The position numbers and the translations under genes were made by a program. DNA of 64,000 nt, taken from sequence record MN850631.1. One strand, given 5' to 3'. This DNA is from Escherichia phage mio. The notes beneath the pieces are model-generated. The model ran no database searches and had not been told where the DNA came from. It saw only the letters and a list, made by a program, of their open reading frames with translations. Position 1 is the first letter of the stretch; every line of letters begins with the position of its first letter. Shown piece by piece: positions 3,184 through 19,188 of this stretch.

Positions 3184-3404
3184 TTTTGAATCTCCTAGTT
3201 TAAGGACTTTACTTAGTGGGGAGGTTATCCCTCCCGTTGATTAGTAATTTACTTGTTTTGATATCTGATTGCAAGCAATTTTTTAAGCTTACCTATAAAG
3301 AATCTTTTAAGTTAATCCCTTTTAAATAAACCCCCCTCGAACAAAGTTACCAATGTCAATAGGGATTGTCAACACTTTTTTAAAAGTTTTTTGTAAGTTG
3401 TTGA
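3184..3404 (-). promoter_or_regulatory. extended intercistronic region: type A element plus additional promoter-like hexamers
   Basis: Type A core and GGGGAGG-TTAT-CCCTCCC hairpin at 3184-3250; minus-strand TTGACA hexamers at 3354-3359 and 3368-3373; 221 bp gap versus ~65-95 bp elsewhere. Confidence 0.4.
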
Positions 3405-3746
3405 TTAACTGATGAATATTTTTTCAGGTTTTACGTAGCTGATACGCTGATTTTTTAGTAGGCTATCCCATAACAAGGCGGCAATGTGCCCATATCCGGC
3501 CTCACGCAGCCCCTTCATCGTTTCAACTCGACTCTCAAAACGATTTGCGTAATACTCGCTATTAAGTGTCGTTTTGTTCCCTTCGTTATCTGTATGGATG
3601 ATTTGCATCACTTGAAAGGGGCTGACATCCTCGCCTTTGTTCCACTGCTCAAAGTATTTTAGGCACTGCATAGGTGACATCTTATCACTGACTTGAGTTG
3701 ACCAAGATGAATTTTCTTTATTGGTAATTACGGTTACATAAGCCAT
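3405..3746 (-). CDS. hypothetical early protein (113 aa)
   Basis: ATG 3744-3746 with RBS in conserved element. Confidence 0.6.
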   Translation of the reverse strand: MAYVTVITNKENSSWSTQVSDKMSPMQCLKYFEQWNKGEDVSPFQVMQIIHTDNEGNKTTLNSEYYANRFESRVETMKGLREAGYGHIAALLWDSLLKNQRISYVKPEKIFIS

Positions 3747-3835
3747 TTTTGAATCTCCAGTTTAGGACTTTACTTAGTGGGGAAGGTCATTCCCTCCCCG
3801 TTGATTGACAATTTACAGACTTTTATCAGGCTTGT
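3747..3835 (-). promoter_or_regulatory. conserved intercistronic element, hairpin type A
   Basis: Core CATTTTTGAATCTCCAGTTTAGGACTTTACTTAGTGG plus GGGGAAGG..TCCCTCCCC then GTTGATTGACAATTTAC. Confidence 0.45.
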
Positions 3836-4069
3836 CTAGTCTTTTTCAATGATAATTTCATATTGACCATCAACACTGTCAAAATAGATTCCATCGTCAT
3901 CTTCTGTCTTAAAGTAACATTGTATGTCATCACTGGCGGGGTAGTCTTGTCTTGCTATCTGACAAACTTGAATAGCATTTTCTTTACTTCCTGTGAACTC
4001 CTCAAGCCCTTTAAAATCGCATGAATGACCATTACAGATGGAAAGGATGAGGTAAACGGTTGTAAGCAT
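3836..4069 (-). CDS. hypothetical early protein (77 aa), Cys-containing, acidic
   Basis: ATG 4067-4069; upstream spacer 4070-4132 lacks the conserved core (divergent element). Confidence 0.5.
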   Translation of the reverse strand: MLTTVYLILSICNGHSCDFKGLEEFTGSKENAIQVCQIARQDYPASDDIQCYFKTEDDDGIYFDSVDGQYEIIIEKD

Positions 4070-8795: not shown

Positions 8796-9581
8796 TTAGT
8801 TCTTTGCGTCTAAGAAGGTAACTTCCGGTGAAGAGAAAATTCCCTCAACATCCTCATCAGTTCTTGCATAGATATATGTATCTGCATCACTGCCAAATGT
8901 TACTGCAATTCTGTGATTGCTCTTCGACAGGTGGGTAACTAGAGCGTTACTTAGAGACATCTTTTCAACCGGAGGGTTACTTTGATGTACCTTACCTTTT
9001 CTTCGTCTGAAGAGGGTAACTGCATCGTCAGTGAACACTACTACACCTGCAAAGTATTCTGGTTCACAGTAGTTCTTCCAACCTGAGCGTAACTTGTGGT
9101 ACATCTCTCCTTCGTAGACATATAGATAGACATCTACACTCTTCATCACCTGATTAATGATAACGGTGACGGCTTGAGGGTCAAGTCCACCGATACCTGC
9201 ACCAATCATAGGTAAACCAACTTTCTTCAACTGATTAACTTCACAGTATCTGTTAAGTTGCTTCAAAGATGACTCTAAAGCACTGTATCGGGCATCTTTA
9301 CCAGTCTTAAGCTGAGTGTAAAGATTGGCTATACGGCCTTGTTTTAAACGTGCTACAGAGAAATTGCCTAGCAAATTTTCACAGGGTTTGTGACCTATAC
9401 CACCTGCATACAGATAAACTTCTGTATCGGTCTCATATGCTTTTGGGTAAAGTTTAGAAATCTTATCAGCGATACCTGCACCCATTAAGTTCATACAGTT
9501 GCAACCGTGACCAATGATATCAAACTTACCTTTATCAAATGCGGAGAAGATATCCCCATTGATGATTTTTACAATACCCAT
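8796..9581 (-). CDS. macrodomain protein (TARG1/DarG-like ADP-ribose binding/hydrolase fold) with ~100 aa C-terminal extension
   Basis: N-terminal GDIFSAFDKGKFDIIGHGCNCMNLMGAGIA...GLPMIGAGIGGL matches the macrodomain pattern; ATG 9579-9581 overlaps upstream stop. Confidence 0.65.
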   Translation of the reverse strand: MGIVKIINGDIFSAFDKGKFDIIGHGCNCMNLMGAGIADKISKLYPKAYETDTEVYLYAGGIGHKPCENLLGNFSVARLKQGRIANLYTQLKTGKDARYSALESSLKQLNRYCEVNQLKKVGLPMIGAGIGGLDPQAVTVIINQVMKSVDVYLYVYEGEMYHKLRSGWKNYCEPEYFAGVVVFTDDAVTLFRRRKGKVHQSNPPVEKMSLSNALVTHLSKSNHRIAVTFGSDADTYIYARTDEDVEGIFSSPEVTFLDAKN

Positions 9582-10002: not shown

Positions 10003-10303
10003 AGTTTACCTTCTCAGTTAGCTCATACAAGTCAACATGCTCAATACTATCAATGTTGATACCAATCTTTTTGAAGCGTTCTATCACTTCGTTGTCAGTC
10101 ATCCATATCAGACACCAATGATTATGGATGGATTCTTCAAGAAGGTCAACACAGTCTTTAAAAGTTTTTGTATCACTTCTTGTTCCGACTACTGCGATTG
10201 TCCCATACAACCACTTACCATTACCATAAGATACTTGTGCTACGCCAACTTCTTTATCTTTCTCGTAGTAAACGGCTACAAAATCTCTTCCGTTAATCTG
10301 CAT
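9977..10303 (-). CDS. hypothetical protein (108 aa); start moved to ATG 10303 (track start TTG 10342)
   Basis: ATG 10301-10303 preceded by AGAGGAA RBS; alternative ATG at 10333. Confidence 0.45.
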   Translation of the reverse strand: MQINGRDFVAVYYEKDKEVGVAQVSYGNGKWLYGTIAVVGTRSDTKTFKDCVDLLEESIHNHWCLIWMTDNEVIERFKKIGINIDSIEHVDLYELTEKVNYESNTSQR

Positions 10304-10607
10304 TTGTAAGTTCCTCTGTTGGTAATTCACCATTCTCAGCAAAGTATTGAAGGTACGGCAACAGTTCTTTTACCTGTTCTTGATTGAGCTTCATTCTTTG
10401 ATTACCTACAAAATCTTTGCCTACTAACGCTGGGATATCAAGTGTTTTCCAGCCACCATCTAGGTACTGAATAGAGACCTCTTTAGCACCTAACCAGATA
10501 CATGGTTCATATGATGAACTTTCTTGTAAAGTACAAATCTCTCCTTTAGCATCTTTAAATTCTGCATAAGAAAATCCACGATTTGTTGGCTGGAATTGCA
10601 TAATCAT
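10293..10607 (-). CDS. hypothetical protein (104 aa)
   Basis: ATG 10605-10607; overlaps neighbours. Confidence 0.5.
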   Translation of the reverse strand: MIMQFQPTNRGFSYAEFKDAKGEICTLQESSSYEPCIWLGAKEVSIQYLDGGWKTLDIPALVGKDFVGNQRMKLNQEQVKELLPYLQYFAENGELPTEELTNAD

Positions 10608-10873
10608 TTCCTCGTTTTAAGAACTGCTAAGATTTCTTTAGAGTCTGGTAAGAACCATGTGTAGTGATTCTCTTTGATTTCTGGATGAGTGTCAACCTTT
10701 ATTTTGCACTCTTTACCAACATGCTTCAGTTGTGCTGTGATGCCTTGCATAAAAATATGACACATCACGTTATCCATAATGGTCGGTGAGAAATCAATTC
10801 GCATATAAGTTTCTTTTGGTCGTGGTAGCAGTAAGTACCCTTCTACATAGAAAGTGTCTTCATTCTCTGTCAT
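10604..10873 (-). CDS. hypothetical protein (89 aa)
   Basis: ATG 10871-10873; ATGA-type overlap with upstream gene. Confidence 0.5.
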   Translation of the reverse strand: MTENEDTFYVEGYLLLPRPKETYMRIDFSPTIMDNVMCHIFMQGITAQLKHVGKECKIKVDTHPEIKENHYTWFLPDSKEILAVLKTRK

Positions 10874-11139
10874 TGCTGTTTGTTCCCTAATAAAAGCATA
10901 TCAATAAGGTTATTAGCTTTGATTGTGCACTGGTAAAAACCATCACGATAAAACTCAAGGGCTGCTGCCACATCACTACCAGTATTACCTTTGACAGTGA
11001 ATCTTGACTCTTCTTGAGTGTACTTGTCACCCTCACTCACTTGGGAGTTTTTGAATGTACTGTTCACTTTGTTCGTTGAACACCCTGACATAATTATCAG
11101 TAACACAAACATTATAAAACTCTGGCTTAGTTTTTTCAT
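10870..11139 (-). CDS. putative lipoprotein (89 aa), o-spanin-like; gene starts inside the upstream TM-protein gene in another frame
   Basis: Signal MKKLSQSFIMFVLLIIMSGC with lipobox-like MSGC; AGAGGT RBS 8 nt upstream of ATG 11137-11139. Confidence 0.45.
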   Translation of the reverse strand: MKKLSQSFIMFVLLIIMSGCSTNKVNSTFKNSQVSEGDKYTQEESRFTVKGNTGSDVAAALEFYRDGFYQCTIKANNLIDMLLLGNKQQ

Positions 11140-11380
11140 ATGTTAGTACCTCTTTTGTATGCTTATTCTTAGCAAGCACATCTTTCAAATCGTTTTTGTA
11201 ATTGGCGCTTAGTGTGGCTAAACCTTCCTGATAAGCATCTTTAGCAACACTTATTAGTTTCTCATTATTTAGCTCAGCTTCAGCAACTTGATAGTCTCGG
11301 TAAGAGTATCCTCCCCAGACACCCGCTCCAACTAAGAAAACAATTATGAAAGTAGCTTGACAGAACTCTTTAAATGTCAT
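11033..11380 (-). CDS. membrane protein with N-terminal TM helix and coiled-coil-like periplasmic part (115 aa), i-spanin-like
   Basis: N-terminus FIIVFLVGAGVWGGYSY hydrophobic; AGGAGA RBS 7 nt upstream of ATG 11378-11380; overlaps lipoprotein ORF by 107 nt. Confidence 0.5.
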   Translation of the reverse strand: MTFKEFCQATFIIVFLVGAGVWGGYSYRDYQVAEAELNNEKLISVAKDAYQEGLATLSANYKNDLKDVLAKNKHTKEVLTYEKTKPEFYNVCVTDNYVRVFNEQSEQYIQKLPSE

Positions 11381-11394
11381 TTAACAATCTCCTG

Positions 11395-11420
11395 AAATGA
11401 AAAAGGCTCCCGAAGGAGCC
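11395..11420 (-). terminator. putative intrinsic terminator
   Basis: GGCTCC-CGAA-GGAGCC hairpin with T-run on the minus strand. Confidence 0.45.
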
Positions 11421-11432
11421 TGTATCTTAACC

Positions 11433-11897
11433 TTAACCGAGGACTTTAGCAAGGACATTTGCAGCCATCGAAGAAGCTTTTGCAGCAGCAGCTACCCCAG
11501 CTTTGACGGTGCTATCCTTGATAGCAGATACCGTTGCAGCATCAGTAAAGAGATAAGTAGTTGTTTTAGAACCACTTGTAAAGGAAAGCATAAGAGCAGT
11601 TTCCAGATTGAAAGAGCGATACGGAGCACCTTCTTTAACAATACCTTCAGCACCTAATTCTGAAGCCATCCCCATATCATAGATAGTCATCAGGTTTTCT
11701 TTGTGTGCTGTCGTTGAGCCAGAACCTTTTACGTGTTTCTTAACATTCAAAAGAGCGCGATACTCTCGAATGTTACCATCTGCTTTTACGTTGACAGCAC
11801 GGAAGATTTTACCCTCAAAGTTGTTCTTGATAATGTTACGAACTACTTCAGATTTGTTTGCCGTAACGTCCAGTGCTACCGTAATGATATTGTTCAT
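11433..11897 (-). CDS. hypothetical protein (154 aa), Ala-rich C-terminus
   Basis: ATG 11895-11897; no recognisable motif. Confidence 0.55.
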   Translation of the reverse strand: MNNIITVALDVTANKSEVVRNIIKNNFEGKIFRAVNVKADGNIREYRALLNVKKHVKGSGSTTAHKENLMTIYDMGMASELGAEGIVKEGAPYRSFNLETALMLSFTSGSKTTTYLFTDAATVSAIKDSTVKAGVAAAAKASSMAANVLAKVLG

Positions 11898-11907
11898 AAG
11901 TTTTCTC

Positions 11908-12603
11908 TCAATGTTTAACTAACATGGTTTTGATGTGTGGAAGGATTCTGTTCACCTTCTGCACATTCTTCTCTGTATCTTCTATAAAACATACTATATT
12001 AAAGTAAGGCAGAATGCAAGACTGAATCATCCTCACTTTCAAACTTTCTGCACTTATAGAGTTAGTCCCAAAACCACGCATAAAAAGCATGTAGTCATGC
12101 TCTGTGTTATGCCTTAAAAACATCTCAGTAGGTATTCTCTGAGATTCACCTCTCGCTGTCAAGAGTCCAACAGCAGCATGATTAGCAATTGCATCAATGA
12201 TATTGAAAACATACGTTGGTTTTGCTCTTACAGAGTCAAGAAGATTAGTGTACTGTAAAAATGAACCATCAGTCAATTCCGTTGAACAATCTTCGTGATT
12301 AAAATTTGTAAGAACACCATCAATATCTGCTAAGATAAGGTTACCTTTCTCTACAAGGTCTTTATTGACTATGACTAAGCTATCACGACTTACACCTATA
12401 GTCTGTCCAGTCTCTTTATCTTCAACATTCACAATTGGCTCTGATGTGTGGAACTCTTCAAGTGAACATACAACTTCTCTCGCAGTGTCTTCAAAATCCC
12501 TGCACTGTTCTGGAGTCCATACACAGGAATCAAGACCTAACTCATGAGGATGTAAGTCATAAGCATGACACAGTACTTCATCAGACTTTCTTAATTTTTT
12601 CAT
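11908..12603 (-). CDS. HAD-superfamily phosphatase-like protein (231 aa) with N-terminal domain of unknown function
   Basis: LADIDGVLTNF (DxDG motif I) and GLLTARGE (motif II-like) in the C-terminal half. Confidence 0.45.
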   Translation of the reverse strand: MKKLRKSDEVLCHAYDLHPHELGLDSCVWTPEQCRDFEDTAREVVCSLEEFHTSEPIVNVEDKETGQTIGVSRDSLVIVNKDLVEKGNLILADIDGVLTNFNHEDCSTELTDGSFLQYTNLLDSVRAKPTYVFNIIDAIANHAAVGLLTARGESQRIPTEMFLRHNTEHDYMLFMRGFGTNSISAESLKVRMIQSCILPYFNIVCFIEDTEKNVQKVNRILPHIKTMLVKH

Positions 12604-13129
12604 GGTTTACCTTAGAAATGTTTGTTGCAAATTCACATTGAGCGATGACTTTCATGTTGTTATAGACATCTTGAGAATATTTCTTAGCTTTAGGGATTCT
12701 GTACGAATACCCAGCATTATATGATGCTAAAACTTTTTGTAAAGTCTTCTTTGACTTTGGCTGACCATGCACCTTTGTCCAAAACTCAAGTTCTTTGTGC
12801 GTTTCCTTTGCAGCATAGTCAAAGTCTTTTAAGAGTTTCTTTTTAGCCACATTAGGACTGATTTTGTTACGCTTTACAACAGTCTTCAAGTGATTCTGGA
12901 AAATACCATAATCATGTGTCTTTTTATTCTCTACCTTCAGACCTAACTCTGACTCTTGTAAGGCTATAGCAGCTAGAGTGATACCCCAACCTTTACCCAT
13001 GTTATTCTCACCATACTGGTAAGCTTTTAACATGTTTACTTTTTGGCTAATTGATAGCTCTGGGCAGTCAACTGCATAAGATAAGTGTGCTGTAAACATT
13101 AAGCACAAACCTAGAATCAATTTCTTCAT
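12581..13129 (-). CDS. secreted lytic transglycosylase (SLT domain) with N-terminal signal peptide
   Basis: Signal MKKLILGLCLMFTAHLSYA; SLT motifs ALQESELG, DYGIFQ, ASYNAGYSY. Confidence 0.7.
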   Translation of the reverse strand: MKKLILGLCLMFTAHLSYAVDCPELSISQKVNMLKAYQYGENNMGKGWGITLAAIALQESELGLKVENKKTHDYGIFQNHLKTVVKRNKISPNVAKKKLLKDFDYAAKETHKELEFWTKVHGQPKSKKTLQKVLASYNAGYSYRIPKAKKYSQDVYNNMKVIAQCEFATNISKVNHEKIKKV

Positions 13130-13184
13130 TGGTTCTCCTGTTTAGTTTATCGTGACAACAATTATACAGCACTCTGCACAAAAT

Positions 13185-13212
13185 ACAAATAAAAAAGGCC
13201 GCCGAAGCAGCC
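13185..13212 (-). terminator. putative intrinsic terminator downstream of rIIB
   Basis: GGCTGC-TTCG-GCGGCC hairpin (minus strand, one G-U pair) followed by TTTTTT. Confidence 0.4.
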
Positions 13213-13229
13213 TTTTAAGAAATTACTTA

Positions 13230-14339
13230 TTAGATTTCACGTTTACGTTGTGAGATAAGTTCTCCAGCAGTGCCAACGATGACATGCAAAGCTTCAGTCT
13301 TGCCATCCCATTCTTTCAGCACTTTACGTTGGTTATCAACGATTGCTGCAACTTCATAACGAGACGAACGCATCTTCATATCGTTGTAATCAGTTGGAAC
13401 AGATACAACATCTCGTGGATGGACACGAACCTTCAGGATTGTATCACCTGAGAAGCAACGAACATAATCCCAAGCACCAACATGAAGACCTTGAGAGCAA
13501 GTTACGTTACGGTTATTATCAACCATCCAACGTGGCATCTCTACAATGTTACCCAAATCATTAGGTACTCTGTAGGTGTGGGAGTCAACCAGCTTGCCTT
13601 CACGAGTAGACACTTTCTTCCAACCAATGATGTAGCCTTCTTCATCAATTTCAACATCAAGGTGAGATACGAATCCCCAAAGTTGTTCTACAGAATCTTT
13701 AGATGGGTTTTCCATCAGTTTTTCGAAGAACATCACAAGGCGTTCAAAACCCTTATCTCCAGTCTTCATCATGTGAAGAATACGGTCAACAAGAGTAGAA
13801 CGCATCTCAACAGCACCGTAGAATAACTTGTCACCTTTGATTGTGATAGCACCTTGAGTGAAGTTTTCGATAGACTTACGAATATTCATCAGTTCAAAGG
13901 CTTTCTTGAACTCACCTTTCACAACATGAACTACAATCTCTTGATAGTTCGGATGAGTAGATTCAACAATTTCAGACTCTGAACCGTAAGTCATAATTAC
14001 AGAGTCACCAGTAATCATGTACTCAATCTTGTCATCTTTCTGCATAGCTTCGTGCAGTTTATTTACTGGAGCTTTCTCTACAGATTCTTTAACAACCTTT
14101 TTAACTGGCTTGTCAGCTTTCTTTTTAAAGGTCTTAGCAACTTGCTTTAAAGTCTTTGTAGCTGGTGTAGAAGTTGCCTTTTTATTCCCTTTTAAGGTTG
14201 CTTCATGACGCTCTACAGCACGACCGACTGAACGGGTTGAGGTGTTAAATTTCTGTGCAATAGCTGTTTTAGTCAGCTTGCCCTCTTTAACCAGTTTGTA
14301 AATTTCTGCGTCAATCTGTGCTTTAGTTTTAGTAGTCAT
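13230..14339 (-). CDS. rIIB: rIIB-like protein
   Basis: 369 aa with N-terminal helix-turn-helix-like region, immediately downstream of the rIIA-like gene (conserved rIIA-rIIB order). Confidence 0.6.
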   Translation of the reverse strand: MTTKTKAQIDAEIYKLVKEGKLTKTAIAQKFNTSTRSVGRAVERHEATLKGNKKATSTPATKTLKQVAKTFKKKADKPVKKVVKESVEKAPVNKLHEAMQKDDKIEYMITGDSVIMTYGSESEIVESTHPNYQEIVVHVVKGEFKKAFELMNIRKSIENFTQGAITIKGDKLFYGAVEMRSTLVDRILHMMKTGDKGFERLVMFFEKLMENPSKDSVEQLWGFVSHLDVEIDEEGYIIGWKKVSTREGKLVDSHTYRVPNDLGNIVEMPRWMVDNNRNVTCSQGLHVGAWDYVRCFSGDTILKVRVHPRDVVSVPTDYNDMKMRSSRYEVAAIVDNQRKVLKEWDGKTEALHVIVGTAGELISQRKREI

Positions 14340-14418: not shown

Positions 14419-16785
14419 TTAATCGTAAACTGTTGTACCTTCTGGAACACATTTCACATTAAAGCCTAAAAACTTACTCACTTCAATAGGTGACACTTTA
14501 TTCCAATCTAAATGGGAAAGCAAGAAGTTTTCTTGTTTTCTTTTTGAAAGGTAGTTTGTCACCTTAATGACCATGCGGTCACCAGCTTTCTTAATTTTCT
14601 TGTACAGCTTTGTATCATTGTCAAGGCATTCTTTCAAAGTTTGCAATCTACTAATGGTGTAAGTGTATGCAAACGGTGCAGCAACATACTGGATTTTACC
14701 GAATATTGCCTCTACAGCCTCTTCGTTACCTTCTAGGAAGATAGTTTTGCTAGTATCTCGTGAATAGCAATAGCCACGAGAAATCTTCTTGTTATTGAAT
14801 GTAAAGTTTCTGGCAATAATCCAACTGCTTGTAAGGTCAAGAACACCATTCATGTAGATGCGTGTCATATACCTGTTATGATTAATCCAGTGAACATCAG
14901 TTAAGCTGTCGTTCAAGAGCTTCTCATCTACTTCAATCCAGTCTTCTGGTATCTTTTTCCAATTTGCTTTTCGGAAAACATAGACTGTCTTCCCTATAAC
15001 ATTAGCAACTGACTTAGCTACATCTTCTGGAGATGAGCAAAAGCATTCACCATCAACTGTGTCACCTACTGCCTTAATGTAAAGCTGAGGTTCTTCAATT
15101 GTGTCTAAGTCTTCTGATACCTCTGTGTATGAGGCTACACCTTCTGCTGGAACAGCTTTCCAGAGTTTTACAACACCCCTTACAGCTTCTTTACGCTGAT
15201 AGTGGTGTTCCTTATCAGACATCTTCACAATCTTTAACAAGCTTTTATCAAGTTTATGCAGATTGATTAAATCATCTAACTCTTTCTCAGTCGAGAATAC
15301 AAACACAATACCATTGTATCTGTGAAACAGACTTGATTCGTTGGCATAGTCTCGACATGCACCACGCAGAATCTGATTGCGGCCTACAGTCTTCTCAGTG
15401 CCATTTTTATTACGACGGTCATTAATCACGAACAAAAACTGTTCAATTTGGCTTTTACGCATTGCACCAAAGATATTGAACATACTCGCCTCTTGAGTGT
15501 AGGAAAGTGCTGTTGCACGAATCTTACTCTCTAAAGAGTTGAACTTAACATAAGCAACTGGATTGTATAGGTAGTCCACTTTAGGAATGTTGTTTCCTTT
15601 ACTGTCAACCTTAATATTACCTTTGCCGTCACGTTCATAGATGACTGAGCCATCTTCTGCGTAGATAATTCCACGACGAATGTTTAGCAATTCTTCTTCC
15701 AGAGAGTCAAGCTTAACACCTCCCCACTCTAGCTTTGGACACACAGCATTAAACATTTCTCGTGAGTTCAAACGTAACTCTGCATAAGCCTGTGCAGCAT
15801 CCATGAGTGTAGGTTGGTTATTAACTCCCTTAATAACGTCCCTTGTAATTGCTTCAGTTATCTTTTTAGTAGCCTCAATGATAACATTTTTTGTCGTATC
15901 ATTCATCTGCAATGCTTCACGAGAAGCTGCAATAGCAACTGAACCAATAGGCATGTAAATGTTTACAAGGTCTACGCTCCTACGGAAAAACTCTGGCAAG
16001 ACTTTGAAGAAATCATCACCAAGTAATGCTTCCATGTTAACAGGGTATGCAATGTTACCCATCACCACATTAAACTCTGTCCTGTTACCACTAGAACGCC
16101 AACTTTGCTTATGAATCATAGCATCATAAACACCCTCTTCACGGGCAATGACGTTCATATCTGCTAACACATCATCATATACAATATTGCTTTCTGGTTT
16201 TACAGCAAAGTATGAATATACGTGACCAGCCTCTTCAAAGAACTTTGAGATACGGTGGTCAGCAACTGCCACACGTACAGCTAAGCCATTAGGTTCATTC
16301 GTTTGGTTAGTAGTAAGCTTAGTTACTTGAGGGATACCATTCTCAAGGTAAACAGAGTACTTATTAACAACACCATCAACATAGCTAGATACTGTGAATG
16401 ACTGAGCAATTGCAAATGGGGATTTTGAGCCGATACCCATTGCACCAATGTAGTCATTAGAGTCATTCTTCGTAGAAGCCCCGTAGTTCAGATACAAACT
16501 CATTACCTTGTCGTGGGTTAAACCAGTTCCAAAATCACGGACTTCAAAGTAAGGCTCAAATCGAGTAGGTAAATGCACATGGAATGGGATGTTCTCTTTT
16601 CCAGCTTCTTTCTGAGCATCCACTGCATTACATGACAGTTCACGAATCACTGCTCGCTCTTTAAATGTGTATACACCAGAACTCAAAAGGCTGAACATTT
16701 CAGGTGTCATTGTAATCTGTGCTTGAGATGTCTCCAAAGAAGTTGAACTCTTAATCACTTCTGCGTGGTCGTTTACCATGCGCAT
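14419..16785 (-). CDS. rIIA: rIIA-like protein (GHKL ATPase-like N-terminus)
   Basis: 788 aa; N-terminal RAVIRELSCNAVDAQKEAG matches the ATPase-like box of rIIA family; AGAGGA RBS before ATG 16783-16785. Confidence 0.75.
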   Translation of the reverse strand: MRMVNDHAEVIKSSTSLETSQAQITMTPEMFSLLSSGVYTFKERAVIRELSCNAVDAQKEAGKENIPFHVHLPTRFEPYFEVRDFGTGLTHDKVMSLYLNYGASTKNDSNDYIGAMGIGSKSPFAIAQSFTVSSYVDGVVNKYSVYLENGIPQVTKLTTNQTNEPNGLAVRVAVADHRISKFFEEAGHVYSYFAVKPESNIVYDDVLADMNVIAREEGVYDAMIHKQSWRSSGNRTEFNVVMGNIAYPVNMEALLGDDFFKVLPEFFRRSVDLVNIYMPIGSVAIAASREALQMNDTTKNVIIEATKKITEAITRDVIKGVNNQPTLMDAAQAYAELRLNSREMFNAVCPKLEWGGVKLDSLEEELLNIRRGIIYAEDGSVIYERDGKGNIKVDSKGNNIPKVDYLYNPVAYVKFNSLESKIRATALSYTQEASMFNIFGAMRKSQIEQFLFVINDRRNKNGTEKTVGRNQILRGACRDYANESSLFHRYNGIVFVFSTEKELDDLINLHKLDKSLLKIVKMSDKEHHYQRKEAVRGVVKLWKAVPAEGVASYTEVSEDLDTIEEPQLYIKAVGDTVDGECFCSSPEDVAKSVANVIGKTVYVFRKANWKKIPEDWIEVDEKLLNDSLTDVHWINHNRYMTRIYMNGVLDLTSSWIIARNFTFNNKKISRGYCYSRDTSKTIFLEGNEEAVEAIFGKIQYVAAPFAYTYTISRLQTLKECLDNDTKLYKKIKKAGDRMVIKVTNYLSKRKQENFLLSHLDWNKVSPIEVSKFLGFNVKCVPEGTTVYD

Positions 16786-16814: not shown

Positions 16815-16991
16815 TTACTTATTAAACATTTTACCAGAACCGCCACACATAGGGCAACAACCTGCTCTTGTATAGCCTTCTCCATTACAGTAGTCACATT
16901 TTTTGTGCTCTGCAAAGTACTTGCAAAGAAGGTAAACAAATACTGCTATGCTACCAAGCGACAGTAAAATTTCTATCCAATATGCTTGCAT
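16815..16991 (-). CDS. small membrane-anchored zinc-finger protein (58 aa), not in ORF track
   Basis: Hand translation MQAYWIEILLSLGSIAVFVYLLCKYFAEHKKCDYCNGEGYTRAGCCPMCGGSGKMFNK; TM helix plus CxxC..CCPMCGG; replaces out-of-frame track ORF 16751..16939. Confidence 0.3.
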   Translation of the reverse strand: MQAYWIEILLSLGSIAVFVYLLCKYFAEHKKCDYCNGEGYTRAGCCPMCGGSGKMFNK

Positions 16992-17361: not shown

Positions 17362-19143
17362 TTAAAGCTGCTTGTCAATATTATTTCGAATATCACCAAG
17401 AGATGTGTAACCGTACTGCTCAGAGTCACTAAAGACTAAACGTAAAGCACAAGCTGGATGTTCAAGTGCATCTGCAAAGCTCTGGAATCCATAGCCATCT
17501 ACAGCTTTCAACTTATCACCATCCCACATAGGTGCTACACCACCAAAAGCAGACTTCTTAACACCACTATCTGTTTTAGGGTCTTTTGCAAGCATAATCT
17601 CTTTACCACCAATGCTTGCAAGAGTTGCTTTAACAGCAAATGCAAAGGTGTCACGAGTCATGTACTGGTAAGTGTAAGAGCCTACGCCAAACACTACGTT
17701 AGAGCTTGCAAAACCCATTTCATACAGACGCTTCAGGATTTCGTTTGCACGTTCCAGCGTGATAGAGTCACCATAGATAAGGCCGATATGCTCATCAAGT
17801 ACCTTAAACCCTTTAGAGTTAATAGTTCCTCCAAAGATGTTGTACAGTGTCTTAATAGCTCCATCAATTTCAGCTACAGGACGTGTTACAACGTTTGCAG
17901 AACCAACCATATAAGCATTTTTCAACATCACTGTATCAGCAACTTCAAAGTCTTCTCTGTCAACAACCATTTCGTAGCCTTCTGACAGTAGCCATCCAGC
18001 AATACCATAGTTGATGTTTTCAAGCTTCATGTTCAGAACAGCATTCAACATTGTGTCACTAGCTTCCAGCTTGCTTAGGTGCTCGTAATAAGCCTTCTTA
18101 GCACACTCTAAGTGGATTGCTTTATAACCTGTGACAATATGTACAGGGTCTCCAGAGTCAGGGCGAATTACCAGCTTACCATCCCGTTCCATAATTTCTT
18201 TACGAAGTGCTGGTAAGATTTCTGACACAGTTCTCCAGAAGTTATAAGTATCTGAAACAATACTTGCAATACCAGTTGGGTAAGTTTCTGTTAAGAAACG
18301 ACGGAAGGTTTGCAACTCACCTTTAAAGCGTCTTTCTTCTTCAATCAACTCATTACCACCTTCCCAAGCAATGTTTGCACACATTACAGAGTGCTCAGTG
18401 GCTGGTACAGAACTACCAATATCAGAGATTGGGTAAGACTGTCCATAGATTCGTTTAGCCGTATACACAGCAGGGAAGCTATCAGTTCCTTTAAAGCTGG
18501 TTAAGTGGCCTACAGCGTTAAATGCGTCATCAGTAAAGCCTGACATACCACGCATAGCAAAGTCATGGCACTGATAAGGTAAATGCAAGTCATTGTCACA
18601 AGTAAGGTCAGCCCACTTCTTACAGGTACGCTTGTAGTGTAATGCAATAGTAGCAATGGTGCAAGCTTTCCAAATCTCAGCAGAGAAAGCATCCTCCAGA
18701 TACCCTGCTACCCAATGGAAACCTGAAACAGTGTTCTGGAAGACAATCATTGGGACACGCATTGGAACAACTGTGCCTTCTTCTACAGCGTATACTTCAA
18801 CTGGTAGATAACCTAAGTCGTGAAGTGCTTCCCAATGCTCTCGACCGATAGCATCTTTACCCAGAACACCATTCATGACTTCTAAGATTTCATCAATTGC
18901 TTCTTTTTTATCACGTTCAAAGAAGGTGGCGTTCCAGTGGTCTATCAAGTAATCTTTAACAAAACGTTGAATACCGAAAGCCACTACACCATCAATTGCT
19001 AAGGGGCTGTTAAACCATTTATCACTACGTGGTGTCAGGTTGAACATCAAGTATTCTGTTGCACTAGGATACTGGTAAACATGACCAGATTTGTAAGCAT
19101 CTGCGTTTAAACCTGCTGGTACTGCATAAAGTGATTTAGTCAT
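17362..19143 (-). CDS. nadV: nicotinamide phosphoribosyltransferase family protein (NAMPT/NadV-like; possibly a Namat-type nicotinamide ADP-ribose transferase)
   Basis: 593 aa, N-terminus ...AYKSGHVYQYP... typical of NAMPT family; adjacent to Prs-like gene. Confidence 0.8.
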   Translation of the reverse strand: MTKSLYAVPAGLNADAYKSGHVYQYPSATEYLMFNLTPRSDKWFNSPLAIDGVVAFGIQRFVKDYLIDHWNATFFERDKKEAIDEILEVMNGVLGKDAIGREHWEALHDLGYLPVEVYAVEEGTVVPMRVPMIVFQNTVSGFHWVAGYLEDAFSAEIWKACTIATIALHYKRTCKKWADLTCDNDLHLPYQCHDFAMRGMSGFTDDAFNAVGHLTSFKGTDSFPAVYTAKRIYGQSYPISDIGSSVPATEHSVMCANIAWEGGNELIEEERRFKGELQTFRRFLTETYPTGIASIVSDTYNFWRTVSEILPALRKEIMERDGKLVIRPDSGDPVHIVTGYKAIHLECAKKAYYEHLSKLEASDTMLNAVLNMKLENINYGIAGWLLSEGYEMVVDREDFEVADTVMLKNAYMVGSANVVTRPVAEIDGAIKTLYNIFGGTINSKGFKVLDEHIGLIYGDSITLERANEILKRLYEMGFASSNVVFGVGSYTYQYMTRDTFAFAVKATLASIGGKEIMLAKDPKTDSGVKKSAFGGVAPMWDGDKLKAVDGYGFQSFADALEHPACALRLVFSDSEQYGYTSLGDIRNNIDKQL

Positions 19144-19188
19144 CTTTTAATCTCTCTCAAAATGGGGCTTTCAAGCCCCTATAAACTT

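What the first reader, a model, noticed from the sequence alone, without database searches (positions are those of the whole stretch)
12581..13129. Secreted SLT-domain lytic transglycosylase next to rIIB
The protein has a cleavable-looking signal peptide and all three SLT signature motifs (E-S, GIFQ, AYNAG-like). A Sec-exported muralytic enzyme can be a signal-peptide endolysin that needs no canonical holin for export, or a cell-wall remodelling enzyme used during infection. Its position beside the rII genes, which modulate lysis timing in T4-like phages, is suggestive.
Basis: partly seen in the sequence, partly recalled or inferred. Interest (0 to 1): 0.45.

Follow-up and report, generated by a model that had tools for sequence, protein, structure and literature searches.

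The report
Phage periplasmic wall-cutting enzyme (Vs.1 family)
This gene is the Felix O1-type copy of phage T4's long-known Vs.1 protein, a small cell-wall-cutting enzyme exported to the periplasm before lysis; it is a real accessory enzyme whose role is untested, and it is not the phage's main lysis enzyme.

Summary

The window is a Felixounavirus. The gene is Felix O1 ORF3, an ortholog of T4 vs.1 (PHROG 600, 1e-57). The similarity of vs.1 to SLT was published by 2006, and databases already call homologs "putative lysin" or "SLT domain-containing protein".

The signal-peptide endolysin reading is not supported:
- Felix O1-type phages carry a separate, assayed GH24 endolysin (gp35), about 4.4 kb outside this window, plus spanins.
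- ORF3 is transcribed in the middle phase and is absent from the virion proteome.
- Knockdown of the SUSP1 ortholog gave no fitness defect; T4 vs.1 scored only "Semi-Fit".

My analysis adds two points. Across 166 family representatives the export signal is near-universal. A Cys22/Cys165 pair also co-varies (Fisher p = 9e-32), which argues for a periplasmic disulfide.

Adjacency to rIIB is conserved synteny in Ounavirinae and recurs in three distant lineages, but it is absent in T4-like phages.

Verdict: already known in kind; physiological role still untested.

The parts
12581..13129 (-). CDS, 182 aa: Felix O1 ORF3 / T4 Vs.1-family lytic transglycosylase precursor (PHROG 600).
   Evidence: ORF list; phrog_600 1e-57 over residues 1-170; 100% identical protein in Salmonella phage FSL SP-010 and 32% identity, E = 2e-16, to RB51 vs.1; Felix01p003 note 'protein in vs-regB intergenic region'.
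13073..13129 (-). Signal peptide, residues 1-19 (MKKLILGLCLMFTAHLSYA). Cleavage after Ala19 is predicted, not shown.
   Evidence: Read from the sequence. Family-wide, 153/166 have K/R before the core, 158/166 have a strongly hydrophobic 8-mer, and the median hydrophobic segment is 13 residues. No lipobox: Leu at -1 of Cys9.
12584..13072 (-). Mature domain, residues 20-182: single GH23 / SLT-type lysozyme-like domain (helices 27-44, 48-60, 81-88, 92-101, 103-121, 127-142, 146-167). Residues 172-182 form a disordered basic tail.
12950..12955 (-). Codons for Glu59-Ser60, SLT motif I with the predicted catalytic acid/base.
   Evidence: E59 in 166/166 and S60 in 160/166 representatives. The profile alignment places E59 on the Glu of the E-S motif of EtgA and of goose lysozyme; these are the published catalytic residues EtgA E42 and GEWL E73 (numbering from my own knowledge).
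12896..12907 (-). Codons for Gly75-Ile-Phe-Gln78, SLT motif II (G-L-M-Q type).
   Evidence: G75 in 157/166; position 78 is Q in 92 and H in 65.
12710..12724 (-). Codons for Ser136-Tyr-Asn-Ala-Gly140, SLT motif III (A-Y-N-x-G type).
   Evidence: Y137 166/166, N138 156/166, G140 166/166.
13064..13066 (-). Cys22 codon, three residues after the predicted cleavage site. Proposed disulfide partner of Cys165.
   Evidence: Co-occurrence across 166 representatives: both Cys 82, neither 70, N-terminal only 13, C-terminal only 1; Fisher p = 8.6e-32. The phylogeny was not corrected for.
12635..12637 (-). Cys165 codon in the last helix. Proposed disulfide partner of Cys22.
   Evidence: Same as for Cys22.
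13135..13139 (-). Ribosome-binding site AGGAG, 5 nt upstream of the ATG.
   Evidence: Sequence; invariant in 8 Ounavirinae intergenic regions.
13160..13180 (-). Conserved promoter-like block TGTGCAG-N5-TGTATAATT (TATAAT at 13166..13161). Candidate promoter of the ORF3 - PNK - ORF5 unit.
   Evidence: Invariant in Ounavirinae whose proteins are only 74-81% identical. Function as a promoter is inferred. The motif is not repeated elsewhere in the window.
13193..13216 (-). Intrinsic terminator after rIIB (10-bp stem, TTCG loop, T-run). It separates rIIB from this gene.
   Evidence: Terminator scan; conserved. Felix O1 RT-PCR gives different peak times for ORF2 (10 min) and ORF3 (25 min) (PMC3185647).
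11908..12603 (-). Downstream polynucleotide kinase (pseT-like) gene. It overlaps the 3' end of the SLT gene by 23 nt and is probably co-transcribed. Context only, not part of the enzyme.
   Evidence: phrog_3970 1e-133; ORF coordinates; the same overlap is present in finno, Felix O1 and SUSP1.

Best explanation
The gene encodes the Felix O1-type ortholog of T4 Vs.1. It is a single-domain family-1 (GH23, SLT-type) lytic transglycosylase that works in the host periplasm before lysis, as a non-essential accessory enzyme and not as the endolysin.

Proposed sequence of events:
1. The gene is transcribed from its own promoter-like element, just after the rIIB terminator, together with the overlapping polynucleotide kinase gene. 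Transcription peaks in the middle phase. (Timing is shown for Felix O1 by RT-PCR; the promoter is inferred.)
2. The precursor is exported through Sec, and signal peptidase I cuts after Ala19. (Inferred from the sequence and from near-universal conservation of the signal in the family.)
3. In the periplasm, Cys22 and Cys165 form a disulfide that ties the new N-terminus to the last helix. (Inferred from co-variation.)
4. Glu59 acts as the single acid/base and cleaves MurNAc-GlcNAc bonds, leaving 1,6-anhydroMurNAc ends. (Inferred from homology. The two Asp residues that make goose lysozyme a hydrolase have no conserved counterpart here.)
5. The result is limited, holin-independent nicking of the sacculus during the productive phase. 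This most plausibly conditions the wall, for example by loosening it for cell enlargement or by giving the cytoplasmic GH24 endolysin and the spanins a pre-weakened substrate. The final lysis event still depends on holin, gp35 and the spanins. (This physiological step is a hypothesis.)
For: Identity:
- phrog_600, 1e-57.
- BLASTP 2e-16 to RB51 vs.1.
- RefSeq note on Felix01p003.

Fold:
- pLDDT 84.7.
- BFVD top hits are phage 'Transglycosylase SLT domain-containing' proteins, E = 2e-9.

Active site:
- E59, Y137, G140 and Y151 are invariant; S60, G63, G75 and N138 are >=94% conserved in 166 representatives.
- E59 aligns to the E-S motif Glu of EtgA and goose lysozyme.
- Position 79, which aligns to goose-lysozyme D97, is I/N/A/V and never Asp among its six commonest residues.

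Export:
- Signal-peptide features in about 95% of representatives.
- Cys pair co-variation, p = 9e-32.
- All named hosts are Gram-negative.

Timing:
- Felix O1 ORF3 is maximal at 25 min (PMC3185647).
- T4 Vs.1 protein was detected and classed early RNA / middle protein (PMC9697503 supplement).

Not the endolysin:
- gp35 GH24 endolysin is conserved in the lineage and has been assayed (PMC9156722).
- gp3 is not in the Felix O1 virion proteome (PMC3185647).
- The SUSP1 ortholog is 'Not Fit'; T4 vs.1 is 'Semi-Fit'.

Slow action of exported LTs: pelB-MltA/MltB need hours to round and lyse E. coli (PMC10139938). A secreted LT is therefore compatible with a cell that stays intact for a 25-60 min infection.
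Against: - No enzymatic, localisation or knockout data exist for any family member that I could find.
- The Pfam SLT score of this sequence is under the gathering threshold.
- Foldseek E-values to PDB are modest (best 7e-3, TM about 0.5).
- The disulfide is inferred from co-occurrence only. I had no model coordinates, and related sequences inflate Fisher's test.
- T4-type Vs.1 has no cysteines, so the disulfide is not essential to the family.
- The physiological role (step 5) is untested.
- The weak knockdown phenotypes could also reflect polar effects or incomplete repression.
Confidence: 0.65

Rival explanations
1. It is a signal-peptide or SAR endolysin: the phage's real (or redundant) lysis enzyme, exported without a canonical holin and held in check until triggering.
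For: It has an N-terminal export signal and a muralytic fold. Some GenBank and UniRef records call it 'putative lysin'. Felix O1 has no holin-lysin cassette (PMC3185647).
Against: - A canonical GH24 endolysin, gp35, is conserved across the genus and lytic in vitro.
- The hydrophobic core is 11-13 residues with 27% Gly/Ala/Ser/Thr and a good S-Y-A cleavage site, unlike SAR domains.
- Expression is middle-phase in Felix O1, and early RNA / middle protein in T4.
- The gene lies in pre-late regions next to replication or RNA-metabolism genes in most lineages.
- Knockdown of the SUSP1 ortholog is neutral.
Confidence: 0.05
2. It is a dedicated 'space-maker', like the specialised transglycosylases of secretion systems (EtgA, VirB1, IpgF). 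On this view it locally enlarges peptidoglycan pores so that a phage envelope-spanning structure can assemble, most obviously the spanin complexes encoded 1.2 kb downstream.
For: - It has the same architecture as the specialised LTs: a Sec signal plus one roughly 150-aa SLT domain.
- In Ounavirinae the gene sits two genes upstream of the i-/o-spanin pair.
Against: - A terminator separates the unit from the spanin genes.
- Spanin linkage is not seen in the T4-type or other loci examined.
- No partner-binding element is evident.
- EtgA's second acidic residue has no conserved equivalent (D73 varies).
Confidence: 0.12
3. It is functionally coupled to rIIA/rIIB (membrane-integrity or lysis-timing control), for example as the periplasmic arm of an envelope-maintenance module.
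For: - The order rIIA-rIIB-SLT is fixed in all 31 Ounavirinae-type loci examined and in a 37%-identical relative.
- Bona fide rIIB genes lie 1.4-2.1 kb upstream, on the same strand, in three further distant lineages: L061, L066/L067 and L070/L072.
Against: - In T4-type genomes the gene is flanked by regB and vs (10 loci) and lies about 60 kb from rIIA.
- Other lineages place it next to primase, exonuclease or polymerase genes.
- A strong terminator and different RT-PCR timing separate it from rIIB in Felix O1.
- Both gene sets belong to pre-late regions, so proximity may be inherited synteny.
Confidence: 0.1
4. It acts against competitors or host responses rather than in lysis. Examples would be altering the sacculus to hinder superinfecting phages, or releasing muropeptides or outer-membrane vesicles.
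For: - It is made before late functions.
- It is periplasmic, the compartment where the T4 superinfection proteins Imm and Sp act (from my own knowledge).
- It is non-essential in the laboratory yet kept in 1898 phage genomes.
Against: There is no direct evidence. An active glycan-cleaving site is conserved, whereas known exclusion proteins are inhibitors or membrane blockers.
Confidence: 0.08

Closest known systems
Bacteriophage T4 Vs.1 (UniProt P13311; PHROG 600), 'conserved hypothetical protein' between vs and regB
   Same: - Homologous over the full length: 32% identity, E = 2e-16 to the RB51 copy, and the same PHROG.
- Same size (181-182 aa).
- Same N-terminal signal peptide (MRKALLAGLLAISMMAHS...) and same SLT motifs.
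- Pre-late expression.
- Its marginal SLT similarity was already noted by Nolan et al. 2006 (PMC1524935).
   Different: - T4-type copies lack the Cys22/Cys165 pair and carry a roughly 12-residue insertion after helix 1.
- Neighbours are regB and vs rather than rIIB and polynucleotide kinase.
- T4 vs.1 scored 'Semi-Fit' on knockdown, whereas the SUSP1 ortholog of the window gene scored 'Not Fit'.
Family-1 bacterial lytic transglycosylases (E. coli Slt70, MltC, MltE; P. aeruginosa MltF and Slt), GH23
   Same: - Same four motifs, with a single catalytic Glu in an E-S motif.
- Periplasmic location.
   Different: - Only 12-17% sequence identity.
- No lipid anchor, superhelical U/L domain or ABC-type module; it is a bare catalytic domain with an extra N-terminal helix.
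- Encoded by virulent phages and expressed during infection.
Specialised transglycosylases of secretion systems (EtgA of the EPEC T3SS; VirB1, IpgF and IagB types)
   Same: - Small Sec-exported single SLT domain.
- Presumed limited, local wall cleavage rather than bulk lysis.
   Different: - Not encoded in a secretion-system cluster.
- No known activating partner, unlike EtgA-EscI.
- EtgA's additional catalytic Asp has no conserved counterpart.
Signal-peptide and SAR endolysins (Oenococcus phage fOg44 Lys44; P1 Lyz; phage 21 R21)
   Same: A muralytic enzyme that reaches the wall by the Sec system, independently of holin holes.
   Different: - Those are the phage's principal endolysins, are expressed late, and (for SAR types) have an uncleaved Gly/Ala-rich membrane-releasable helix.
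- Here the phage has a separate GH24 endolysin, expression is middle-phase, and the N-terminal core is short and strongly hydrophobic with a cleavage site.
Goose-type lysozyme (GEWL) and GH23 chitinase of Ralstonia sp. A-471
   Same: Top Foldseek PDB hits. The catalytic Glu aligns.
   Different: The hydrolytic Asp residues of GEWL have no conserved counterpart: one falls in an insertion, the other aligns to position 79, which is I/N/A/V. A non-hydrolytic transglycosylase mechanism is therefore more likely.

Membership tests
GH23 / family-1 lytic transglycosylase (Pfam SLT, PF01464) | Lysozyme-like, mostly alpha-helical catalytic fold of Slt70 / goose lysozyme | tested here: met
   [not shown]
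GH23 / family-1 lytic transglycosylase (Pfam SLT, PF01464) | Motif I: catalytic Glu followed by Ser (E-S) at the end of a helix | tested here: met
   E59-S60. E in 166/166 and S in 160/166 representatives. Aligned to the E-S motif Glu of EtgA and GEWL.
GH23 / family-1 lytic transglycosylase (Pfam SLT, PF01464) | Motifs II (G-L-M-Q), III (A-Y-N-x-G) and IV (conserved Tyr) | tested here: met
   G75-I-F-Q78, S136-Y-N-A-G140 and Y151. Y137, G140 and Y151 are invariant; G75 157/166; N138 156/166.
GH23 / family-1 lytic transglycosylase (Pfam SLT, PF01464) | Score above Pfam's curated gathering threshold | tested here: inconclusive
   This sequence scores 19.2 bits against a cut-off of 21.3. 14 of 15 aligned relatives match SLT at E <= 0.01, best 8.2e-12.
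GH23 / family-1 lytic transglycosylase (Pfam SLT, PF01464) | Non-hydrolytic cleavage that yields 1,6-anhydroMurNAc products | not testable with these tools
   Needs purified protein, sacculi and LC-MS. The only indirect support is the lack of conserved counterparts to the GEWL hydrolytic Asp residues.
T4 Vs.1 family (PHROG 600) | Full-length sequence homology to T4-type Vs.1 | tested here: met
   phrog_600 1e-57, residues 1-170 on profile 1-176/178. BLASTP 2e-16 to RB51 vs.1. T4 vs.1 is itself assigned to phrog_600.
T4 Vs.1 family (PHROG 600) | N-terminal Sec-type signal peptide on a protein of about 165-195 aa | tested here: met
   Window protein and RB51 Vs.1. 153-158 of 166 representatives show the n-region and h-region features.
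T4 Vs.1 family (PHROG 600) | Pre-late expression in a non-structural gene region | not testable with these tools
   Literature only: Felix O1 ORF3 peaks at 25 min (PMC3185647); T4 vs.1 is early RNA / middle protein (PMC9697503). The genomic context agrees.
Signal-anchor-release (SAR) endolysin | Uncleaved, weakly hydrophobic, Gly/Ala/Ser-rich N-terminal transmembrane helix of about 18-20 residues | tested here: not met
   The hydrophobic core is 11 residues here (family median 13), with a Gly/Ala/Ser/Thr fraction of 0.27 and an S-Y-A cleavage motif.
Signal-peptide endolysin (principal lysis enzyme) | Is the phage's main or only peptidoglycan-degrading lysis enzyme | tested here: not met
   A separate GH24 endolysin, gp35, occurs at >=80% identity in about 251 records, including the closest relatives. 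It is assayed as lytic. The SUSP1 ortholog of this gene is 'Not Fit'.
Specialised secretion-system transglycosylases (EtgA / VirB1 / IpgF) | Encoded within, and working with, a secretion-machine gene cluster | tested here: not met
   Neighbours are rIIB, polynucleotide kinase, regB, vs and replication genes in phage genomes.
Virion-associated peptidoglycan hydrolase | Present in the virion, usually fused to a tail, tape-measure or internal-core protein | tested here: not met
   It is a stand-alone 182-aa protein with an export signal. The published Felix O1 virion proteome does not list gp3 (PMC3185647).

The most novel reading that the evidence does not exclude
Large virulent phages of Gram-negative bacteria (T4-like, Felix O1-like, ViI-like, some jumbo phages) may share a conserved, holin-independent 'pre-lysis wall-conditioning' step. 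In it, a Sec-exported Vs.1-family transglycosylase nicks the sacculus from mid-infection. This would be mechanistically tied to envelope-integrity or lysis-timing functions (rII, spanins), which would explain the recurrent rIIB linkage seen in four deep lineages. Vs.1 would then be a so-far-unrecognised component of the lysis programme.
Probability: 0.12. Interest if true: 0.6.

Novelty: already known. Interest (0 to 1): 0.25.

Why it matters
The gene itself is not new. It is Felix O1 ORF3, a member of the T4 Vs.1 family, and its SLT similarity has been in the literature since 2003-2006 and is in current database names.

Correcting the interpretation matters in practice. This protein should not be annotated or mined as the phage's endolysin or "lysin", as several GenBank and UniRef records do. 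Felixounaviruses are used for Salmonella and E. coli biocontrol, and their real endolysin is gp35.

A modest open question remains. An apparently active periplasmic transglycosylase is kept by about 1,900 sequenced large virulent phages. It is made well before lysis and gave a weak fitness signal in T4, yet nobody has tested what it does. The conserved signal peptide, the invariant active site and the co-varying cysteine pair reported here make that question directly testable.

Tried and rejected
- **PDB by single sequence.** phmmer against PDB gave no hit even at E = 10. Only the family profile reached EtgA and goose lysozyme.
- **Pfam alone.** The score is below threshold, so I relied on the fold and the family.
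- **Endolysin inside the window.** The window maps to Felix O1 positions about 14,276->1 and 86,155->37,608, so gp35 at 18,691-19,155 lies outside it.
- **Lipoprotein reading.** Rejected. Cys9 is preceded by Leu at -1, so there is no lipobox, and this Cys is absent in distant homologs.
- **Bacterial origin of the family.** The one hit labelled as bacterial (Campylobacter coli) sits on a 214-kb contig with a chimallin gene, which indicates a jumbo phage.
- **A repeated phage-specific promoter.** The conserved TGTGCAG-N5-TGTATAATT block upstream occurs only once in the window. My first search used the wrong spacing, N6.
- **The (-3,-1) rule script.** It was satisfied by 164/164 sequences, so it is too permissive to be informative on its own.
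- **AFDB50 fold search.** Not available.
- **Miller et al. 2003 T4 review.** Not held.
- **Literature on vs.1.** Searches found no functional study.
- **Disulfide geometry.** I could not inspect model coordinates, so the Cys22-Cys165 distance is unverified.
Full report
**What is there.** On the minus strand at 12581..13129 there is a 182-codon ORF. An AGGAG ribosome-binding site lies 5 nt upstream of the ATG. The product begins MKKLILGLCLMFTAHLSYA|VDCPE. It contains QE59S60ELG, YG75IFQ78N, S136YNAG140Y and K-Y151-SQDV. The neighbours upstream are true rIIB (13230..14339, phrog_609, 1e-88) and rIIA (14419..16785, phrog_612, 3e-187). Downstream, in order, are:
- a polynucleotide kinase gene (11908..12603) that overlaps the ORF by 23 nt;
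- a PHROG-2267 ORF (11433..11897);
- a terminator;
- an overlapped i-/o-spanin pair (11033..11380 and 10870..11139).

**Where the window comes from.** The region is 96% identical in DNA to Salmonella phage Felix O1 and to about 245 other Felixounavirus records. The ORF is Felix O1 ORF3 (Felix01p003). RefSeq annotates it "hypothetical 20.7 KD protein in vs-regB intergenic region", which means homolog of T4 vs.1. Other records call it "putative lysin" or "lysozyme domain-containing protein". It matches PHROG 600 ("unknown function") over its full length at 1e-57, and T4 vs.1 is in the same PHROG. It aligns with RB51 vs.1 at 32% identity, E = 2e-16. tblastn finds relatives in 1898 of 50,697 phage records, all with Gram-negative hosts. 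These include T4-like phages, Ackermannviridae, and Vibrio, Aeromonas, Acinetobacter, Colwellia and Shewanella phages. A profile search of 1.84 billion representative proteins finds 1265 at E <= 1e-3, mostly 160-200 aa. The one hit labelled as bacterial (Campylobacter coli) lies on a 214-kb contig next to a chimallin gene, so it is a jumbo phage.

**Is it really an SLT-type enzyme?** Pfam SLT scores 19.2 bits for this sequence, below the 21.3-bit cut-off. However, 14 of 15 aligned relatives hit SLT, best 8e-12.

- 11.9 to P. aeruginosa Slt;
- 11.6 to Slt70, MltC and goose-type lysozyme;
- 11.0 to MltE;
- 10.2 to EtgA.

Foldseek's top PDB hits are all GH23. Its top viral hits are phage proteins already named "Transglycosylase SLT domain-containing protein".

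In an alignment of 166 representatives, E59, Y137, G140 and Y151 are invariant. S60 (160), G63 (163), G75 (157) and N138 (156) are nearly so. The family profile aligns E59 to the Glu of the E-S motif in EtgA and goose lysozyme; from my own knowledge these are the published catalytic residues. The two Asp residues that make goose lysozyme a hydrolase have no conserved counterpart. One falls in an insertion; the other aligns to position 79, which is I/N/A/V. I therefore infer a non-hydrolytic transglycosylase mechanism, but activity itself is untested.

**Is it exported, and how?** The N-terminus has two Lys residues, an 11-residue core rich in Leu, Ile, Phe and Met, and an S-Y-A motif.

Across the family:
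- 153/166 have Lys or Arg before the core.
- 158/166 have a strongly hydrophobic 8-mer.
- The hydrophobic segment has a median length of 13 residues and a Gly/Ala/Ser/Thr fraction of 0.29.

That is the signature of a cleavable Sec signal peptide. It does not fit a transmembrane anchor or a SAR domain, which needs about 18-20 weakly hydrophobic residues. There is no lipobox.

A second, independent argument for a periplasmic location comes from two cysteines. Cys22 lies three residues past the predicted cleavage site, and Cys165 lies in the last helix. They co-occur: both present in 82 representatives, both absent in 70, one alone in 14 (Fisher p = 8.6e-32, not corrected for phylogeny). This pattern is what a structural disulfide would give. 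T4-type copies have neither cysteine, so the bond is a lineage feature and not a family requirement.

**Is it the endolysin?** No.
- Felix O1 encodes a canonical GH24 / cd00737 endolysin, gp35 (record 18,691-19,155).
- The window maps to Felix O1 positions about 14,276->1 and 86,155->37,608. gp35 therefore lies about 4.4 kb beyond the left edge, and tblastn finds no copy in the window.
- gp35 homologs at >=80% identity occur in about 251 records, including the phages closest to this window.
- The C600M2/CL1 ortholog was purified and shown to be lytic (PMC9156722).
- The Felix O1-like phage Moogle is described as having a soluble lysozyme endolysin, spanins and a putative holin scattered around the genome (PMC4319497).
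- In Felix O1, ORF3 transcription peaks at 25 min (middle class), and gp3 is not among the virion proteins (PMC3185647).
- In T4, Vs.1 protein is detected and classed early RNA / middle protein (PMC9697503 supplement).
- In transcriptome-wide CRISPRi-ART screens, T4 vs.1 was "Semi-Fit" (0.81, KS p = 0.10). The SUSP1 ortholog agp083, which the authors map to Felix01p003, was "Not Fit" (1.02, p = 0.28) (PMC11879866 supplements).

It is largely met for the endolysin reading.

**Does the rII neighbourhood mean anything?** The order rIIA-rIIB-SLT-PNK holds in all 31 Ounavirinae-type loci from IMG/VR and in a relative only 37% identical. Bona fide rIIB genes (phrog_609, 1e-39 to 1e-83) also lie 1.4-2.1 kb upstream, on the same strand, in three much more distant lineages, with different genes in between (L061, L066/L067, L070/L072).

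In contrast, ten T4-type loci have regB-vs.1-vs(-tk.4), and T4 vs.1 lies about 60 kb from rIIA. Other lineages place the gene beside primase, exonuclease, Sak4 or DNA polymerase genes.

In the window itself, a strong terminator (13216..13193) follows rIIB. Then comes an invariant TGTGCAG-N5-TGTATAATT block and the ribosome-binding site. All are conserved among Ounavirinae whose proteins are only 74-81% identical. Felix O1 RT-PCR also gives rIIB and ORF3 different peak times.

The common denominator is a pre-late gene region. A functional link to rII is possible, but it is not required by the data.

**Most likely mechanism.**
1. Middle-phase transcription from its own promoter, together with the kinase gene.
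2. Sec export and cleavage after Ala19.
3. Oxidative folding in the periplasm.
4. Glu59-catalysed cleavage of glycan strands.
5. Limited wall damage that conditions the sacculus, without causing lysis.

Step 5 is a hypothesis. It is compatible with published work in which soluble MltA or MltB, exported with a pelB signal, needed hours to round up and lyse E. coli (PMC10139938). That is far longer than an infection cycle.

In architecture the protein resembles the specialised secretion-system transglycosylases such as EtgA: a signal peptide plus a bare SLT domain. It is not encoded with any such machine.

**Novelty and score.** The gene, its family and its SLT similarity are already known (Nolan et al. 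2006, PMC1524935; current UniProt names). My analysis adds the family-wide export signal, the co-varying cysteine pair, the invariance of the active site and the context survey. The physiological role of this widespread protein is still an open, testable question, but nothing here is surprising to a specialist. Interest 0.25.

Noticed in passing
window 16815..16991 (-): A 58-aa ORF immediately upstream of rIIA. It has an N-terminal transmembrane helix followed by two CxxCxGxG motifs (DnaJ-type zinc-finger-like): ...CDYCNGEG...CPMCGGSG. It matches PHROG 3931 ('unknown', 7.7e-34), the same PHROG as SUSP1 agp080 / Felix01p243, which scored 'Not Fit' in CRISPRi-ART. By its position it may be one of the small membrane proteins Whichard et al. 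listed as holin candidates; I did not check this.
   Followed up: partly
window 10870..11380 (-) and 11908..12603 (-): An overlapped i-spanin / o-spanin pair (o-spanin lipobox ...IIMSGC) lies close to the pseT-like polynucleotide kinase. From memory, the T4 spanins (pseT.3 / pseT.2) also sit beside pseT. Together with the vs.1-like, tk.4-like and rIIA/rIIB genes, this Felix O1-type region looks like a reshuffled block of T4 early-region homologs.
   Followed up: no
window 8796..9581 (-): A 261-aa Macro-domain protein (Pfam Macro 1.1e-7; phrog_335 'phosphatase' 7.5e-113). It is homologous to T4 tk.4 (31-40% identity by tblastn in related loci) and has a C-terminal extension of about 100 aa with no match.
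   Followed up: partly
window 13160..13216 (-): The rIIB-to-ORF3 intergenic region is unusually conserved. The terminator hairpin, TGTGCAG-N5-TGTATAATT and AGGAG are invariant among Ounavirinae whose flanking proteins are only 74-81% identical. The -35 region is poor (TTTGTA), and the block occurs only once in the 64-kb window, so it is not a general phage promoter class.
   Followed up: partly
L008 (GCA_053226485.1, contig ACBEZJ010000004.1) 8001..8582 and 10019..11953: A 214-kb contig deposited as Campylobacter coli carries a Vs.1-family gene 1.4 kb from a chimallin (phiKZ-type phage nucleus shell) gene. It is probably a nucleus-forming jumbo phage genome inside a bacterial assembly.
   Followed up: no
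L005 (Salmonella phage Maynard, KF669654.1) 3402..4019: In several Ackermannviridae and Tequatrovirus records the Vs.1-family gene is mis-annotated as 'RegB site-specific RNA endonuclease' or 'endoribonuclease', apparently by transfer from the neighbouring T4 gene. In Maynard an annotated holin lies 1 kb upstream.
   Followed up: no
L061 1144..2523; L066 1562..2569; L072 485..1888: Distant uncultured phages (IMG/VR contigs of 19-77 kb) have rIIB homologs 1.4-2.1 kb upstream of their Vs.1-family gene, with unrelated genes between (for example a denV-like endonuclease V in L072). I did not test whether this recurrence exceeds what is expected for two pre-late genes.
   Followed up: partly
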